DNA of 64,000 nucleotides from assembly GCF_050320075.1 (NCBI RefSeq), contig NZ_CP190018.1; one strand, 5' to 3'. A program made the position numbers and the translations under genes. A model generated the notes under the pieces. The model was not told the DNA's origin and did no database searches. It worked only from the letters and a program-made list of their open reading frames with translations. Source of the DNA: Escherichia coli. Its GTDB lineage: Bacteria > Pseudomonadota > Gammaproteobacteria > Enterobacterales > Enterobacteriaceae. How positions within the stretch are numbered: the stretch's first letter is position 1; every line of letters starts with the position of its first letter. This document shows, piece after piece, positions 2,262 through 55,792 of the stretch.

Positions 2262-5200
2262 ATGACATATCAGGCAATTTTCACTGGCTGGGATGATCTG
2301 ACGATTGAAGACCTTCTGGTCGCTTACCGGAAAGCAAAAGCCGATAGCTTCTTTGAGAATACATTTCCTGTTGCTATCAAATTTGCCGAGTATGAGCAGG
2401 AATTACTTGAAAACCTGCAAAAACTCTTAGATCTTTTGCAGAGCGAAGATGGATTCAGTAGCAATAAGAAGTTGATTGGCAAATTTCGATTGTTACCGAA
2501 AAAATTAACCACAAAGAAAAAACATGAATCCCAAAATGGACACGTCCACTTTTCTAATCCTAAACGAGCAGCCGACCATTTATTTAATAATTTTGATCTG
2601 ATACCAGAGTTTCGTATTATTGGTGACTTCCCGGTTGATAGTCACATTATCTCTGCACTATGGATTAACATGGTCGGGCATAAATTTGATGCCAGCTTAG
2701 ATAACTGTTGCTATGGCGCGCGGCTAAAGCGTATTCGTAATGATGAATTATTTAGCAATGAGCAGGATAATCCATTCCATATCAGTGCCGTGGGTTCTTT
2801 TAGCCCCTACTTCCAGCCCTACCAAAAATGGCGTGGTGATGGCTTAAAAGCTATACGTGACGAGTTGGAAAAAGATCGTGACATTATCGCCGCCTCACTG
2901 GATTTAAAAAGTTACTATCATTTTATTGATCCACTGGCTATAACCTCTGATGATCTCTATAACACACTAAACATAAAACTGACTGAGGATGAAAAAGCGT
3001 TTACTGCACAGTTAGCAGTATTCTTAAAGCACTGGTCTGACGGCGCAGCGGCATTTGGAAAGAAAATAGCGTACAAAACACCTGTTATTAATGGTGGTCT
3101 GGTCATTGGATTAACAGCCAGTCGGATCATTTCAAATATATTGCTACACCATTGGGATAAATTAGTCATTGAAAAACTATCACCAATTCACTACGGTCGT
3201 TATGTCGATGATATGTTCCTTGTAATACGCGATACAGGGACAATTACTAATAATCACGAATTTATGTTATTGCTGCAAGATAGGCTTGGCAATGATTGCG
3301 TTTATTTGAAAAACGAGCAAAAACAAATATGGCAAATACAGCAGGGCGAGCATTTCCAGGGTAAGACCACCATCCAGTTACAATCCGATAAGCAAAAACT
3401 TTTCGTGCTTCAAGGGAGGGCTGGAATAGACCTGCTCGACAGTATCGAAAAGGAGATCTACGAGCTTTCTAGTGAACACCGCTTGATGCCTTCACCGGAT
3501 CAACTGGAACACTCCACCGCAGCTAAAGTCCTTTCCGCTGCCGGTAGTGTAGGTGAAAATGCCGATACTCTGCGCCGTGCGGATGGATTAACCATTCGTC
3601 GTTTGGGCTGGTCACTGCAATTACGCTACGTTGAAACACTGGCACGAGATCTGCCTCCAAGTGAATGGAAAGAACAGCGGGAAGAGTTTTATCAGTTTGC
3701 CTACAACCATATTCTTAGGGCTGATAATCTATTTGCACATTTTAGTTATCTGCCAAGGCTGCTTGGCTTTGCTATCAGTATGAATGAATGGCAGCACGCG
3801 GAAAAAATTGTACTTAAAGCTTACGAATCCATCAACCTGTTGGCATCGGTGATTACTTCAGGTAAGGAAGTGAATATAAATGGTTGCAAAACTCGAGCAG
3901 TAAATGATCTTTGGCGCTGTATAAAAGGCACATTAAGCTGGCTATTTGTTGATGCAGCGACACGATATTACAGTCCTGACAGATTATTTCTTGATAAACG
4001 TTCAAAGAAAGAAGAGTGCCTTGCGGATACATTTTTTAATCATATTTCACAAAGTCTGACGAATCTAAAGGATTTACTGGATCTTCGCTTTGATTCAGCA
4101 GATTTTTATTTAAAAGCGCCATTGGTAGCTCGAGCTGATTTAGCAAAGGAACCTTATAAACAGATCGTAAAGAGTCAGTCGGCAGAAAAACTTGTTAATC
4201 AGCGTGATAGTAAAAAAGAAGTTAAAATACTGAAATTAATGAGCGACTCATCGCTTATTGATATTGACGTTATTAAGCTATTTTTGAAATCAACCAAGAA
4301 TACCCGACTGGAAAAAGTGGCTAAAGGAAATCGTAAGAACGAAAGTTACCTACCTTACATTTTCCCTACACGTCCTTTAACACCCGCTGAAATATCAGAA
4401 CTGGCCCCCGAATGTGTTGGATTACCCTCCACATCCGACAAAAAACCAGATGAGAGACCGTCCACCATTTGGGCAAAATATACTCAAGCATTACGCGGAG
4501 TATGGATCAAACCGACGTTGCTAGCATCGGAGCAGGACTCAGATGAAGCGACAAAAAAAGCTCGGCCTAAGAAATTCATTCATATTGGCACAGACAGGAA
4601 ACATAAAGTTGTCGTTGCGCTAACCAGCATTAAAACAGAGGAGGACGACTGGGCTAAAATGGCCTGCAATAAATCTAACTTGTCCCGTTCAAGGTACCAG
4701 CGGATTTCTGAACTGGTTAATGCAACATTGAAACTATCTCCTAAACCTGATTATGTTTTATTCCCTGAGCTTTCAATCCCGTTACGCTGGGTTAACAGTA
4801 TTGCTGATCGTTTGAGTTCGGCGGGTATCAGTCTAATTGCGGGAACAGAATACCGCCACTTAGACGATAATCAACTGAAGAGTGAGGCCGTACTTGTCCT
4901 TTCAGATAACAGACTCGGCTATCCAGCGAGTGTCAAAATATGGCAACCCAAGCTGGAACCCGCCGTAGGTGAAGATGAGGCATTATTTTCAATTTATGGT
5001 AAGTCTTGGGATTCGACACTTAATGTTAAACAACGTAAGCCGGTATATATTCATCACGGCGTCAATTTTGGCGTTATGATTTGCTCTGAACTCCAGAATA
5101 GTAAAGCGAGGATCCGTTTTCAGGGCGCACTCGATGCATTAATGGTATTGAGCTGGAATAAAGATCTAGATACGTTTGCATCGTTGATTGAATCAGCAGC

Positions 5201-34968: not shown

Positions 34969-35405
34969 TTTCCGAATAGAGTGCTCATCGGTGATGTTTC
35001 AATCTGAATTGCGCCGCCGTCTTTGCCTGTTAGCTCGTGATCAACCTTGTCGCGCCATTTATCCTTCTGTCGGTTCTTAAGCCAGAAAATGGCAGCGGTT
35101 GTATCAGGCGGGTAATACTTCTCAAGCGGAGTTTCGACAATTCTGTTTTCAATAACACGAATATCGATATCTGGAGCCACGAAGCCCATAGCGCGTTGAT
35201 AAAGACGATCACTAACTTCTGCATCAGCGACGGCCTTACCCTTTTTTATGGACTCCGAAAACTTAGGATAATCAAGCTTCCACTTGTTAATAGTTGACTC
35301 ACTGACTTCAAAGAAATCAGCAAGTTCTGCATCGGTGTAGCCCAGCAAGCACAGTTTGCGTGCCTGTTCGGCATACGCCTCTTGATACTTTGTTGGGCGC
35401 GCCAT
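34965..35405 (-). CDS. Terminase small subunit
   Basis: 146 aa; HTH-like N-terminus; overlaps TerL start. Confidence 0.7.
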   Translation of the reverse strand: MARPTKYQEAYAEQARKLCLLGYTDAELADFFEVSESTINKWKLDYPKFSESIKKGKAVADAEVSDRLYQRAMGFVAPDIDIRVIENRIVETPLEKYYPPDTTAAIFWLKNRQKDKWRDKVDHELTGKDGGAIQIETSPMSTLFGK

Positions 35406-35407
35406 GT

Positions 35408-35650
35408 TTATGCTCCGGTGGTGAACAGGTCTAACGCTTCCTTCGATTTACGCACCGCTTCGATAGTGCGGGTCGTGATATCCGAATTAGCGCCGCCTGA
35501 CTGGAAGTGAATTTTGAATAGCTCAAGCTTCAGCTCGTCAGTGCCAATGAACTGAAATGCTTCTTCTGCGGCTGCGTTCTGGTTCATGACCAGCTTGTAA
35601 ATCTCTAACTGGAATTTCTGTTCTTCAGTCATGGGAATAATCTCTGCCAT
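35408..35650 (-). CDS. Hypothetical phage protein (80 aa)
   Basis: ORF immediately upstream of terminase small subunit. Confidence 0.45.
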   Translation of the reverse strand: MAEIIPMTEEQKFQLEIYKLVMNQNAAAEEAFQFIGTDELKLELFKIHFQSGGANSDITTRTIEAVRKSKEALDLFTTGA

Positions 35651-35890
35651 TATTGGCTCCGTTTATCCGTTAAAAGGGATATCAGTTAAGTTATCCCGTG
35701 CAGGGTATAAGCCATTATCAAAGCCACTCTGTAGGGAATGGATTTTGTGATGGCAATAAAAAACCGCCCGTAGGCGGCAAAATTAATGTTTCGTAATTGC
35801 GTCAGATCATTAACCATAGTTATTGTGTAGCTGCTTTGTGTCGTTGGGGTGAACGACGAAAAAGCGAACAACATAATTAATGAGGTGACT

Positions 35891-36421
35891 ATGGAAGTCG
35901 AAAAAATGCTGGTCAAGGACCGGAAGTGTGGCTCTTGCTCAGTTTGCTGTGTTTCTTTGGCAATAGATGAGCCCGAATTGAAAAAAAAGCATGCGGTACC
36001 GTGTACCTATCTCAGGCCTCAGGGTGGTTGCTCGATCTATGCTGATCGACCGTCATTGTGCAAAACATGGCACTGCGGATGGCGGATGATGCCTTTCATG
36101 GGGCCTGCGTTAAGACCAGATCGGTCCAATCTCCTAGTGCGCTTCACGGGAGAATGTTGGATTTTCGGTGATGCTGACGACCAAAGGGAATCTGCATTAA
36201 TGAATAATGATACTTTAAACGCAATGAGCGCTCTGGTCTCGCGTAATATGAAAGTTTCAGTATCAGTTCCAACTAAGCCGGGTTATTGCGACGCTGAACA
36301 TGTCATCAATGATGATATTATGGAGGCGGTAAAAGAACGGTCTTTGTCAAAAGTTAAAGAAATAATTTGGACAGTAATTTGCCGGTGCAAAGTCTCCGCG
36401 ACCAACCCGCGAAAGCAATAA
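35891..36421 (+). CDS. YkgJ-family cysteine-cluster protein (CxxCxxCC zinc/iron-binding) - opposite-strand moron
   Basis: 'CGSCSVCC...VPCTYLRPQGGCSIYADRPSLCKTWHCGW' fits the YkgJ/UPF0153 pattern; SD 'gaggtg' before ATG; AT-rich upstream. Confidence 0.55.
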   Translation: MEVEKMLVKDRKCGSCSVCCVSLAIDEPELKKKHAVPCTYLRPQGGCSIYADRPSLCKTWHCGWRMMPFMGPALRPDRSNLLVRFTGECWIFGDADDQRESALMNNDTLNAMSALVSRNMKVSVSVPTKPGYCDAEHVINDDIMEAVKERSLSKVKEIIWTVICRCKVSATNPRKQ

Positions 36422-36457
36422 ATTAAGCTGAACGCCAAATTTATCCGAAATTTGGCG

Positions 36458-36646
36458 TTACATTAATTCAAATGTCGGCATAGCCAACCAATCATCTGGT
36501 AAGCATGTGTTTTCGACAGACTGCATTAACCGCTCATCACTTCGACATGTGAAAGTTTCTTTGTGACCGAGCGAGCCCTGTGAAGAATTAGGGCAATCCA
36601 TATCTTCACCTGTTTTTTTCACTAGAGCGTTATTAATCTCAATCAT
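36458..36646 (-). CDS. Small hypothetical protein (62 aa)
   Basis: ORF between Rz and terminase region. Confidence 0.3.
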   Translation of the reverse strand: MIEINNALVKKTGEDMDCPNSSQGSLGHKETFTCRSDERLMQSVENTCLPDDWLAMPTFELM

Positions 36647-36871
36647 TGTGAGTTCCAGACCTCAGACTAATTAATTTCAACCCCACTATTGCGAGGCTAA
36701 ATCCTGGTATTTGTAATGACTGGCTCTTATCTCAACGCAGCCCCTTACCGCGCGCAAGATGCTCAATATCAAGCATCAGCAATGAGATGTTTAATCTGGA
36801 TTCACTCCAGAAGTGATCACCACCCTGTCTACAGAGCCAGATGTGAAGGATGATGAGTAAAATTATCGCTA

Positions 36872-37309
36872 TCATCGAAGGCATTGCGTCCTGATGTACT
36901 CCTGCAGGTAGTTAACCTGCGCGGTTATCCTGTCGATTCCACTTCGGAGACGGTAATAATTGAGTTCAGCATCTGCTGTAAGTCTTGGGCTTTCTCCATC
37001 GCCCATGCTGCTGGCTCCGGTCGTTGACTTTGCACAGGTGGCGGCGACTTGCAGGCGTTTACGACCAGCAGAAACATCAGCACGGAGACTTTCGATAGTC
37101 GCGTTAGCATCAGCAAGCTCCTTTGTGTATCTGGCGTCGAGTTCTGCTACATCATGTTGCCGCTTCTGCATATCAGCGATAATAGATGTGGCTTTATCGC
37201 GCTGTTCTTTATAGGTAATGGCGTTATCACGGTAATGATTAACAGCCCATGACAGGCAGACGATGATGCAGATAACCAGAGCGGAGATAATCGCGGTTAC
37301 TCTGCTCAT
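36872..37309 (-). CDS. Rz: i-spanin Rz
   Basis: '[34 protein letters not shown]' near-identical to lambda Rz N-terminus. Confidence 0.9.
36925..37116 (-). CDS. Rz1: o-spanin Rz1 (embedded in +1 frame of Rz)
   Basis: Signal peptide + lipobox Cys + proline-rich '[17 protein letters not shown]' embedded in Rz. Confidence 0.7.
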
Positions 37310-55715: not shown

Positions 55716-55762
55716 ATGGTGCCGATAATAGGAGTCGAACCTACGACCTTCGCATTACGAAT
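55716..55762. repeat. attL core: 47-bp identical to 16849-16895 (within tRNA-Thr 3' half)
   Basis: Exact 47-bp direct repeat. Confidence 0.85.
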
Positions 55763-55792
55763 GCGCTGCTCTACCAACTGAGCTATATCGGC
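55717..55792 (-). tRNA. thrW: tRNA-Thr
   Basis: Reverse complement reads 'GCCGATATAGCTCAGTTGGTAGAGCAGCGCATTCGTAATGCGAAGGTCGTAGGTTCGACTCCTATTATCGGCACCA' with CGT anticodon context. Confidence 0.85.

What the first reader, a model, noticed from the sequence alone, without database searches (positions are those of the whole stretch)
35891..36421. Opposite-strand YkgJ-type cysteine-cluster moron between lysis cassette and terminase
All flanking late genes are on the minus strand, but this 176-aa gene is on the plus strand with its own SD and AT-rich upstream region, the classic moron signature. The Cys pattern 'CGSCSVCC ... CTYL..GGCSIYADRP.LC' fits the YkgJ/UPF0153 zinc/iron-binding family, whose phage-borne members have no known role.
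Basis: partly seen in the sequence, partly recalled or inferred. Interest (0 to 1): 0.4.

Follow-up and report, generated by a model that had tools for sequence, protein, structure and literature searches.

The report
Prophage cysteine-cluster gene with peptide partner
A real but rare accessory gene in an E. coli P22/Sf6-like prophage encodes an eight-cysteine metal-binding protein distantly related to YkgJ, and it travels with a tiny convergent peptide gene as a 0.9-kb cassette that sits between the lysis and DNA-packaging genes of many enterobacterial prophages; what it does is untested.

Summary
A 176-aa ORF lies on the + strand at 35891-36421, has a GAGG Shine-Dalgarno, and sits inside an otherwise all-minus late region of a thrW-integrated P22/Sf6-like prophage.

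Its N-terminal 70 residues are a divergent CxxCxxCC (YkgJ/PF03692) domain. Pfam is sub-threshold (18.4 bits against a cut-off of 23), but profile-profile comparison with true YkgJ gives 93% probability, E 3e-7, with seven of the eight cysteines aligned. All eight cysteines are conserved across the family. Residues 75-176 form a confidently predicted alpha/beta domain with no solved-structure match.

The gene is cargo. Related phages join the flanks directly or carry other genes there, and only 3 of 5426 complete E. coli genomes have it. Homologs at 31-55% identity in Citrobacter, Klebsiella, Rahnella and metagenomic prophages always sit between the lysis cassette and the terminase, on the opposite strand, whatever the terminase type. 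This is the slot lambda uses for bor.

New here: the cargo is two genes. A convergent 55-67-aa ORF (36458-36646) with a protein-level conserved S-D-x-x-L-M motif accompanies it almost everywhere.

No consensus sigma-70 promoter was found, and expression and function remain inferred. This is a modestly interesting new variant of a known kind.

The parts
35891..36421 (+). Gene for the 176-aa two-domain cysteine-cluster protein. The N-terminal domain is a divergent CxxCxxCC/YkgJ-like domain (residues ~11-66, eight conserved Cys). The C-terminal domain (residues ~75-176) is alpha/beta and of unknown fold family.
   Evidence: ORF, PGAP CDS; family; conserved Cys; structure, no PDB match
35882..35887 (+). 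Shine-Dalgarno-like GAGGTG. The GAGG core ends 5 nt before the ATG.
   Evidence: sequence read directly
35777..35881 (+). Non-coding leader and upstream region that belongs to the cargo. It contains a block conserved among cassettes (CATTAACCAT 35808-35817; -10-like TATTGT 35821-35826, preceded at 18 nt by TTGCGT 35797-35802). This is a candidate weak promoter or operator, not a consensus sigma-70 site.
   Evidence: conservation across 14 cassettes; no consensus promoter on the + strand
36431..36459 (.). Perfect 12-bp stem with a 5-nt loop (AACGCCAAATTT-ATCCG-AAATTTGGCGTT) between the two convergent genes. It is a candidate bidirectional terminator but lacks a clear U-tract.
   Evidence: -19.1 kcal/mol, z -4.6 on the + strand; -18.0 kcal/mol, z -3.4 on the - strand
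36458..36646 (-). Convergent small ORF (62 aa; possibly 47 aa from Met16, which has an AGGTGA SD). It carries the conserved S-D-x-x-L-M motif (S36-M41) and is the second gene of the cargo cassette.
   Evidence: ORF, PGAP CDS WP_112889108.1; motif in nearly all cassettes, with Ser AGY/TCN and Leu TTA/CTN codon switching; no Pfam or PHROG family
35757..35778 (-). Intrinsic terminator on the late-gene strand (GCCGCCTACGGGCGGT followed by TTTTTT) at the left edge of the cargo slot. It is backbone sequence, also present in phages with an empty slot.
35653..35776 (.). Left backbone flank, shared at 94-97% with empty-slot prophages and Sf6 (Sf6 homology ends at 35751).
36681..36871 (.). Right backbone flank, shared at 98% with empty-slot prophages (Sf6 homology starts at 36710). 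It includes the 50-aa ORF 36732-36884 (phrog_11822) that overlaps the end of Rz.

Best explanation
The ORF is a genuine accessory (cargo) gene of a P22/Sf6-like E. coli prophage.

The protein. It is cytoplasmic and has two domains. The N-terminal domain is a divergent member of the CxxCxxCC (YkgJ/YcgN/FliB/DpdM) cysteine-cluster superfamily. Its eight conserved cysteines most likely build two four-cysteine metal sites, either Fe-S or Zn. The C-terminal alpha/beta domain is specific to this subfamily.

The cassette. The gene is one half of a ~0.9-kb two-gene cassette (window ~35777-36680). The other half is a convergent micro-protein gene carrying an S-D-x-x-L-M motif. The cassette occupies the hot spot between the spanin genes and the terminase genes, on the strand opposite the late operon. 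This is the same slot and orientation as lambda bor.

Inferred, not shown. The gene is transcribed independently of the Q-dependent late transcript, probably in the lysogen, from a weak or regulated promoter in the conserved upstream block. Late transcription, which also expresses the micro-protein, runs antisense into it. By analogy with the only characterised relatives (FliB and DpdM), the protein acts as a metal-cluster-dependent enzyme, with group or methyl transfer or a redox reaction most plausible, on a host or phage macromolecule. The micro-protein may be its partner or regulator.
For: Real gene and conservation.

Superfamily homology: a consistent but sub-threshold PF03692 hit; hhalign 93%, E 3.1e-7, cysteines aligned; phrog_9155, E 1.9e-16.

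Cargo status: in empty-slot prophages the flanks join directly. Sf6 carries gene 66 in the slot instead. Rha, KilA-N, GIY-YIG or DUF2829 genes are annotated there in other phages. Only 3 of 5426 E. coli genomes carry the cassette.

Conserved slot and opposite orientation: homologs at 38-55% identity in prophages from Citrobacter and Klebsiella pneumoniae homolog clusters, a Rahnella genome and metagenomes hold the same position, with Terminase_4, Nu1/GpA, Terminase_2, Terminase_3 or DUF1441 packaging modules. A systematic Pfam scan of the neighbours of 19 further loci found terminase and portal families on one side and holin, endolysin, Rz and Q families on the other.

Lambda bor sits in the same slot on the opposite strand.

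Partner ORF: it lies inside the inserted segment. It is present with the S-D-x-x-L-M motif in every non-redundant enterobacterial cassette compared. The motif is kept through switches between the two Ser codon families and among Leu codons.

Hairpin between the convergent genes.

Eight cysteines forming metal sites in relatives: FliB binds a [4Fe-4S] cluster through its CX4CX3CC motif and has 8 conserved Cys (PMC8598068). DpdM is modelled with two metal pockets, made from the first three Cys plus one distal Cys, and from the fourth Cys plus three downstream Cys (10.1101/2023.04.13.536721).
Against: There is no consensus sigma-70 promoter on the + strand upstream. The -10-like TATTGT has only a 3/6 -35 element at 18 nt.

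The hairpin after the gene has no U-tract.

No expression data are available.

The Pfam score is below the gathering threshold, there is no NCBIfam hit, and no solved structure resembles the model. The chemistry therefore rests on analogy.

The small ORF as a whole shows near-neutral synonymous to non-synonymous ratios between close pairs.

A fused AlphaFold run did not give a confident complex. The peptide part reached pLDDT 49-67, and no PAE was available.

The convergent arrangement is unusual for an enzyme-substrate pair.

Homologs in Alpha- and Betaproteobacteria have no conserved neighbours, so no function can be transferred by context.
Confidence: 0.6

Rival explanations
1. Defence or self-control module. 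The cysteine-cluster protein is a prophage-expressed superinfection-exclusion or anti-phage effector, or a toxin. The late-strand S-D-x-x-L-M micro-protein, together with antisense late transcription, switches it off when the resident phage itself goes lytic.
For: The gene is oriented opposite to the late operon, in a slot known for lysogen-expressed cargo (bor). It has a strictly co-travelling, convergently transcribed small partner with 3' overlap in many cassettes. Its distribution is rare and patchy, typical of accessory defence cargo. Other cargo near the slot in related phages includes Tad2-like (DUF2829) anti-defence domains.
Against: There is no match to any PADLOC model for either protein. 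Neither protein has a nuclease, NTPase, membrane or other recognisable effector domain. Nothing shows toxicity or an interaction, and the fused AlphaFold model was inconclusive.
Confidence: 0.17
2. Lytic-cycle modification enzyme. Like DpdM or FliB, the protein methylates or otherwise modifies phage DNA, virion proteins or a host target during infection. In this reading the opposite orientation only reflects an own early or middle promoter.
For: The only two characterised relatives of the superfamily are methyltransferases. One of them is phage-encoded and acts on DNA (10.1101/2023.04.13.536721; PMC8598068). N-terminal-domain homologs occur in lytic cyanomyoviruses.
Against: No Pfam DUF3109 or FliB-type match was found. 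The motif spacing is CX2CX2CC, not CX3CX2CC or CX4CX3CC. No 7-deazaguanine pathway genes lie within 13 kb. No full-length homolog exists in 50,697 sequenced phage genomes; hits are N-terminal-domain only, apart from one 68%-coverage Rhizobium phage hit, whereas full-length copies are found in prophages. A gene needed late would not be placed antisense to the late transcript.
Confidence: 0.13
3. Classic single-gene moron. One gene with its own promoter and terminator forms the unit, and the small ORF is an irrelevant or non-coding by-product.
For: Insertion between genes that are adjacent in relatives. SD and a downstream hairpin are present. The small ORF evolves almost neutrally overall and has no family.
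Against: The inserted segment includes the small ORF. Its S-D-x-x-L-M motif is retained across cassettes whose large proteins are only 31-55% identical, through synonymous codon-family switches. No consensus promoter was found.
Confidence: 0.08
4. Decaying remnant or chance ORF with no function.
For: It is annotated only as a hypothetical protein and is very rare in E. coli.
Against: The ORF is intact in all copies. Seven of the eight cysteines, plus P76, are invariant over 95 sequences, with C19 at least 90% conserved. There are thousands of homologous clusters. The predicted fold is confident. Position and orientation are conserved across genera.
Confidence: 0.02

Closest known systems
E. 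coli YkgJ (b0288) and Pfam PF03692 'CxxCxxCC, putative zinc- or iron-chelating domain' (UPF0153; related YcgN family)
   Same: It has the N-terminal C-x2-C-x2-C-C motif, a further Cys, and the C-x-I-Y-x-x-R-P-x-x-C block. Profile-profile homology is 93% probability, E 3.1e-7. A few family members weakly hit YcgN NCBIfam models. Function is unknown in both cases.
   Different: It scores below the Pfam gathering threshold. The spacing between the motif and the next Cys is much shorter (17 vs 43 residues). It has an additional conserved C62-G-W and R75-P-D signature and a ~100-residue C-terminal alpha/beta domain that YkgJ (109 aa) lacks. It is prophage cargo rather than a chromosomal core gene.
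FliB, flagellin lysine-N-methyltransferase of Salmonella (PMC8598068)
   Same: It has a cysteine-rich N-terminal motif of the same general type and eight conserved cysteines. FliB shows that such a motif can bind an oxygen-sensitive [4Fe-4S] cluster needed for SAM-dependent methyl transfer.
   Different: The FliB motif is CX4CX3CC. No sequence-family match was detected here. FliB is a much larger protein (recalled, not checked here) encoded in the flagellar regulon. No flagellar context exists here.
DpdM (DUF3109), phage preQ1-DNA methyltransferase (bioRxiv 10.1101/2023.04.13.536721)
   Same: It is a phage-encoded relative of YkgJ. Its eight cysteines are modelled as two metal pockets, the arrangement proposed here.
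   Different: The DpdM motif is CxxxCxxCC. No DUF3109 Pfam hit was found. DpdM sits next to dpdA and queuosine-pathway genes, which are absent here.
Lambda bor, a moron in the Rz-to-cos slot
   Same: It occupies the same genomic slot, immediately after the spanin genes and before the packaging genes. It has the same opposite-strand orientation and is cargo absent from related phages.
   Different: There is no sequence relationship. Bor is a small outer-membrane lipoprotein, whereas this protein has no signal sequence or lipobox that I could see by eye. The cassette here also has a second, convergent gene.
PHROG phrog_9155 (unknown function)
   Same: It is the best phage-family match (E 1.9e-16), covering residues 8-94, which is the cysteine domain.
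   Different: The match covers only the N-terminal half, and the family is unannotated.

Membership tests
PF03692 / YkgJ CxxCxxCC cysteine-cluster family | N-terminal C-x2-C-x2-C-C motif | tested here: met
   C13-G-S-C16-S-V-C19-C20. In 95 sequences C13, C16 and C20 are invariant and C19 is at least 90% conserved.
PF03692 / YkgJ CxxCxxCC cysteine-cluster family | Downstream cysteines including the C-x-(I/V)-Y-x-x-R-P-x-x-C block | tested here: met
   G-C47-S-I-Y-A-D-R-P-S-L-C57 aligns with YkgJ C71...C81, and C38 aligns with C58.
PF03692 / YkgJ CxxCxxCC cysteine-cluster family | Score at or above Pfam's curated gathering threshold | tested here: not met
   The score is 18.4 bits against a cut-off of 23 (E 0.0036). 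The best E among 95 family members is 7e-5. NCBIfam gives no hit for this protein.
PF03692 / YkgJ CxxCxxCC cysteine-cluster family | Detectable homology to bona fide YkgJ by profile-profile comparison | tested here: met
   hhalign of A2 against A3 gives 93.1% probability and E 3.1e-7 over 51 columns.
PF03692 / YkgJ CxxCxxCC cysteine-cluster family | Binds iron (Fe-S) or zinc through the cysteines | not testable with these tools
   This needs purified protein (UV-vis, EPR, ICP-MS).
Moron (independent transcription unit added to a phage genome; PMC3594210) | Inserted between genes that are adjacent in related phages | tested here: met
   In L002 the flanks at window 35653-35776 and 36681-36871 abut. 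Sf6 has different cargo in the slot.
Moron (independent transcription unit added to a phage genome; PMC3594210) | Own promoter | tested here: inconclusive
   There is no consensus sigma-70 site on the + strand. A conserved upstream block carries a -10-like TATTGT.
Moron (independent transcription unit added to a phage genome; PMC3594210) | Own terminator | tested here: inconclusive
   A 12-bp hairpin starts 10 nt after the stop codon (z -4.6), but no U-tract follows and the terminator scan did not list it on the + strand.
Moron (independent transcription unit added to a phage genome; PMC3594210) | Expressed from the repressed prophage | not testable with these tools
   This needs transcript data from the lysogen.
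FliB flagellin methyltransferase family | CX4CX3CC motif and FliB family sequence match | tested here: not met
   The spacing here is CX2CX2CC. No FliB model appears among the NCBIfam hits.
DpdM / DUF3109 | DUF3109 profile match and linkage to dpdA or 7-deazaguanine genes | tested here: not met
   No DUF3109 hit was found. The neighbours are lysis and packaging genes only.
Known anti-phage defence systems (PADLOC-DB v2) | Match of either cassette protein to a defence-system model | tested here: not met
   There were 0 families at E<=1 for both proteins.
Lambda Bor family | Bor sequence family (lipoprotein) | tested here: not met
   There is no Bor Pfam hit. Only position and orientation are shared.

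The most novel reading that the evidence does not exclude
The cysteine-cluster protein and the S-D-x-x-L-M micro-protein form a previously undescribed two-component prophage module. A metal-cluster enzyme made in the lysogen acts in exclusion or defence, or in modifying a host target. Its action is gated by, or directed at, a short peptide made only from the late operon. Convergent transcription would enforce mutually exclusive expression. The slot-specific, orientation-specific spread across unrelated packaging modules would then mark a new class of lysogenic-conversion or defence cassette.
Probability: 0.15. Interest if true: 0.65.

Novelty: new variant of a known kind. Interest (0 to 1): 0.35.

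Why it matters
The CxxCxxCC/YkgJ superfamily is very large and almost entirely uncharacterised. The two members with known activity are unconventional metal-cluster methyltransferases. A subfamily that is confined in enterobacteria to one prophage slot, in one orientation, and always paired with a motif-bearing micro-protein offers a tractable genetic handle: a 0.9-kb cassette in a P22-like prophage of E. coli. It could be used to ask what such proteins do, and whether the lysis-terminase hot spot carries more lysogen-expressed functions than bor. For this particular window it is an ordinary accessory gene, and nothing suggests a role in virulence or resistance.

Tried and rejected
- PADLOC scan of the four local small proteins: no hits.
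- Rfam scan of 35300-37000 at E<=1: nothing.
- BFVD returned only uncharacterised cyanophage and uncultured-phage proteins.
- The afdb50 library was unavailable.
- AlphaFold on a linker fusion of the protein and the micro-protein, using a paired 18-row alignment, gave no confident docking and degraded the N-terminal domain. This is inconclusive.
- Guilt by association in non-phage homologs failed. In 21 of the 23 non-enterobacterial loci returned, mostly Alpha- and Betaproteobacteria, the neighbours share nothing recurrent. One metagenomic homolog sits after a SEC-C protein, and 2 of 95 members carry SEC-C motifs, which was not informative.
- LexA, CRP, FNR and Fur readings of the conserved upstream TATCAGGAT / CTG-N9-CAG block were checked by eye and rejected because of wrong spacing or half-sites.
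- A synonymous versus non-synonymous count on the small ORF gave no sign of whole-ORF purifying selection. The claim is therefore limited to the motif.
- A literature search for the cassette found nothing specific.

Full report
**Observation.** The window around the finding is the late region of a P22/Sf6-like prophage. Over 13.2 kb it differs by one base from E. coli SB0258h1 chromosome NZ_CP071954. On the minus strand lie Q, holin, endolysin, Rz, a 50-aa ORF, then DUF2560, small terminase, large terminase, portal and coat. The only + strand gene is ATG 35891 to TAA 36421 (176 aa). It is preceded by GAGG five bases upstream, and PGAP annotates it at the same coordinates as hypothetical protein WP_124046848.1. 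GC falls to 0.40-0.43 around the gene's 5' side.

**Is it a real gene, and what family does it belong to?**
- A word-index search found 22 homologs. Besides a 99%-identical copy, they are 31-55% identical and come from a Rahnella genome, from homolog clusters that NCBI names Leclercia, Citrobacter and Klebsiella pneumoniae, and from metagenomes.
- An exhaustive profile search found 6873 representative clusters at E<=1e-3. Of these, 173 are at E<=1e-30, and nearly all of the best 150 are full-length at about 170-220 aa.
- Across 95 diverse members, C13, C16, C20, C38, C47, C57, C62 and P76 are invariant. C19, G14, G46, Y50, R53, P54, W64, R75 and D77 are at least 90% conserved.
- Pfam gives only a sub-threshold hit to PF03692 CxxCxxCC (18.4 bits against a cut-off of 23). 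The same model is hit by 19 of 22 close homologs and 29 of 95 distant ones, with no competing family. NCBIfam gives nothing for this protein. phrog_9155 (unknown function) matches residues 8-94.
- I fetched E. coli ykgJ, built an alignment of 22 true YkgJ proteins, and compared profiles. hhalign gives 93% probability and E 3.1e-7. It aligns the CxxCxxCC motif, C38 with YkgJ C58, and the C-x-IY-x-x-RP-x-x-C block.
- The N-terminal domain is therefore homologous to YkgJ, but the protein is a distinct subfamily. The linker after the motif is shorter, there is an extra C62-G-W and R-P-D signature, and a C-terminal domain is present that YkgJ lacks.
- AlphaFold with the family alignment gives mean pLDDT 81.9 and pTM 0.79. 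The C-terminal alpha/beta domain scores mostly 87-97. The cysteine domain scores 58-77, as expected when the metal is missing from the model.

**It is cargo in a hot spot.**
- The 1.2 kb between DUF2560 and Rz matches 113 phage records and 2593 of 5426 complete E. coli genomes, but only through its flanks. Just three E. coli genomes carry the whole segment, all at 100% identity. A sensitive blastn of the inserted 904 bp finds only those three.
- In an empty-slot prophage the flanks at 35653-35776 and 36681-36871 abut. In Sf6 the homology breaks at 35751 and 36710, and gene 66 lies between. Other relatives have Rha, KilA-N, GIY-YIG or DUF2829 genes annotated in the region.
- The inserted segment contains two ORFs: the 176-aa gene and a convergent 62-aa ORF at 36458-36646.

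**Slot and orientation are conserved across genera.**
- Gene-called contigs for homologs P0006, P0018, P0002, P0005 and P0024, from Citrobacter and Klebsiella pneumoniae homolog clusters, a Rahnella genome and metagenomes, all show the same arrangement. The gene is alone on its strand. It lies between a lysis cassette (holin, endolysin, spanin, with Q further on) and the packaging genes. The packaging modules differ: Terminase_4/TerL/HK97-type, Nu1, Terminase_2, Terminase_3/Mu-F, or DUF1441/GpA.
- I then took 19 further non-redundant loci and scanned their minus-strand neighbours against Pfam. One side gave terminase small and large subunit, HNH and portal families. The other side gave holin, endolysin, Rz and antiterminator Q families.
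- Lambda's bor occupies the same slot on the opposite strand.
- No full-length homolog exists in 50,697 sequenced phage genomes. Cyanomyoviruses share only the N-terminal domain, and one Rhizobium phage shares 68% of the protein.
- Outside enterobacteria, full-length homologs are mostly in alphaproteobacterial and Burkholderiales MAGs, without recurrent neighbours.

- Immediately downstream and convergent, nearly every cassette has a 55-67-aa ORF, often overlapping the 3' end of the large gene. Overall similarity is low, about 6-32% identity to the window's copy, but the ORFs share a hydrophobic-x-[S/T]-D-x-x-[L/F/K]-M core.
- The motif is missing only from five distant loci; a sixth is cut short by a contig end.
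- The motif's Ser is encoded by AGT, AGC, TCT, TCA or TCG. Asp is encoded by GAT or GAC. Leu is encoded by TTA, TTG, CTT, CTA, CTC or CTG. The constraint is therefore on the peptide, not on the DNA.
- The rest of the ORF evolves almost neutrally between close pairs, and no Pfam or PHROG family matches.
- A linker fusion of the two proteins folded with a paired alignment gave no confident complex.

**Signals.**
- No consensus sigma-70 promoter lies upstream on the + strand.
- Fourteen diverse cassettes share an upstream block, roughly TATCAGGAT ... CATTAACCAT ... TATTGT. In the window, TATTGT (35821-35826) has TTGCGT 18 nt upstream. This is a weak candidate at best.
- A perfect 12-bp hairpin at 36431-36459 separates the convergent genes (z -4.6) but lacks a U-tract.
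- The strong minus-strand terminator at 35757-35778 belongs to the backbone.
- Rfam finds nothing.

**How it most likely works.**
- Shown: it is a conserved two-domain protein with eight conserved cysteines, homologous to the YkgJ domain. It is a two-gene cargo cassette with a fixed slot and opposite orientation.
- Inferred from established knowledge of lambdoid late transcription and from the bor precedent: the gene is transcribed independently of the Q-antiterminated late transcript, probably in the lysogen. Late transcription both expresses the micro-protein and runs antisense through the gene.
- Inferred from the two characterised relatives: the cysteines build two four-Cys metal sites that support catalysis. 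FliB has a [4Fe-4S] cluster on its Cys motif and carries out SAM-dependent methyl transfer (PMC8598068). DpdM has two modelled metal pockets and methylates preQ1 in DNA (10.1101/2023.04.13.536721).
- Target and reaction are unknown.
- I put 0.6 on this composite explanation. About 0.9 applies to the family and cargo statements, about 0.5-0.6 to lysogen expression, and about 0.3 to enzyme-type chemistry.
- The rivals are a defence or self-control pair (0.17; no PADLOC support), a lytic-cycle modification enzyme (0.13), a plain single-gene moron (0.08), and a remnant (0.02).

**Novelty and verdict.** The moron label fits the insertion criterion but lacks a demonstrated promoter, and the unit is two genes. 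This is a divergent, sub-threshold subfamily of a known superfamily, sitting in a known type of hot spot, so I class it as a new variant of a known kind. The slot fidelity and the conserved micro-protein are modestly interesting and experimentally tractable. Nothing here overturns current understanding. Interest is 0.35.

Noticed in passing
window 36458-36646 (-): A convergent 62-aa ORF carries an S-D-x-x-L-M motif that is conserved at the amino-acid level in nearly all homologous cassettes. It has no Pfam or PHROG family. An internal Met16 with an AGGTGA SD may be the true start.
   Followed up: yes
window 35916-35888 (-) and 35778-35757 (-): A promoter-like site lies on the minus strand (TTGACC-17-CATAGT) inside the first codons of the + gene. 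With the backbone terminator about 110 nt downstream, it could produce a ~120-nt antisense RNA covering the gene's SD and leader. The -35 and -10 elements overlap coding sequence, so conservation cannot be judged.
   Followed up: partly
window 35797-35835, and alignment A4 of 14 loci: A conserved non-coding block lies upstream of the cysteine-cluster gene (TATCAGGAT / CTG-N9-CAG, CATTAACCAT, TATTGT). It does not fit sigma-70, LexA, CRP, FNR or Fur consensus spacing and may be an operator for an unknown regulator.
   Followed up: partly
window 36925-37116 (-), inside Rz 36872-37309: A 63-aa ORF is embedded in the +1 frame of Rz. It has a lipobox-like LVVNAC and a proline-rich segment, the expected Rz1 o-spanin. 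It is not separately annotated in the RefSeq record.
   Followed up: no
window 36732-36884 (-): A 50-aa hydrophobic ORF overlaps the 3' end of Rz by 13 nt (phrog_11822, unknown function; Sf6 gene 65 equivalent). It is part of the conserved backbone just upstream of the cargo slot.
   Followed up: partly
window 55717-55792 (-): A tRNA-Thr (CGT) gene is the only tRNA in the window. It is probably thrW, the attachment site used by P22-like phages (from memory), which would mark the prophage end.
   Followed up: no
L015 (IMGVR_UViG_2912029355_000008) 2362-3156 and 3413-4672 (-): In one related prophage the terminase side of the cassette is interrupted by a DDE transposase (PF13701) and a 265-aa protein with a Transpeptidase-domain hit. 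The sequence looks like an OXA-48-type class D beta-lactamase. That identification is from memory and was not tested.
   Followed up: no
L067 4364-5998 (+), next to homolog P0023; also P0029: In a non-phage metagenomic contig a full-length homolog directly follows a 544-aa SEC-C-motif protein. In addition, 2 of 95 family members carry a SEC-C motif themselves. This may indicate a link between this subfamily and SEC-C metal-binding tails.
   Followed up: partly
related loci, lysis side, and E. coli hits H64/H76: Tad2-like (DUF2829, Thoeris anti-defence 2-like) genes appear at or near the lysis-terminase region in some related prophages. This suggests the hot spot also hosts anti-defence cargo.
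   Followed up: no
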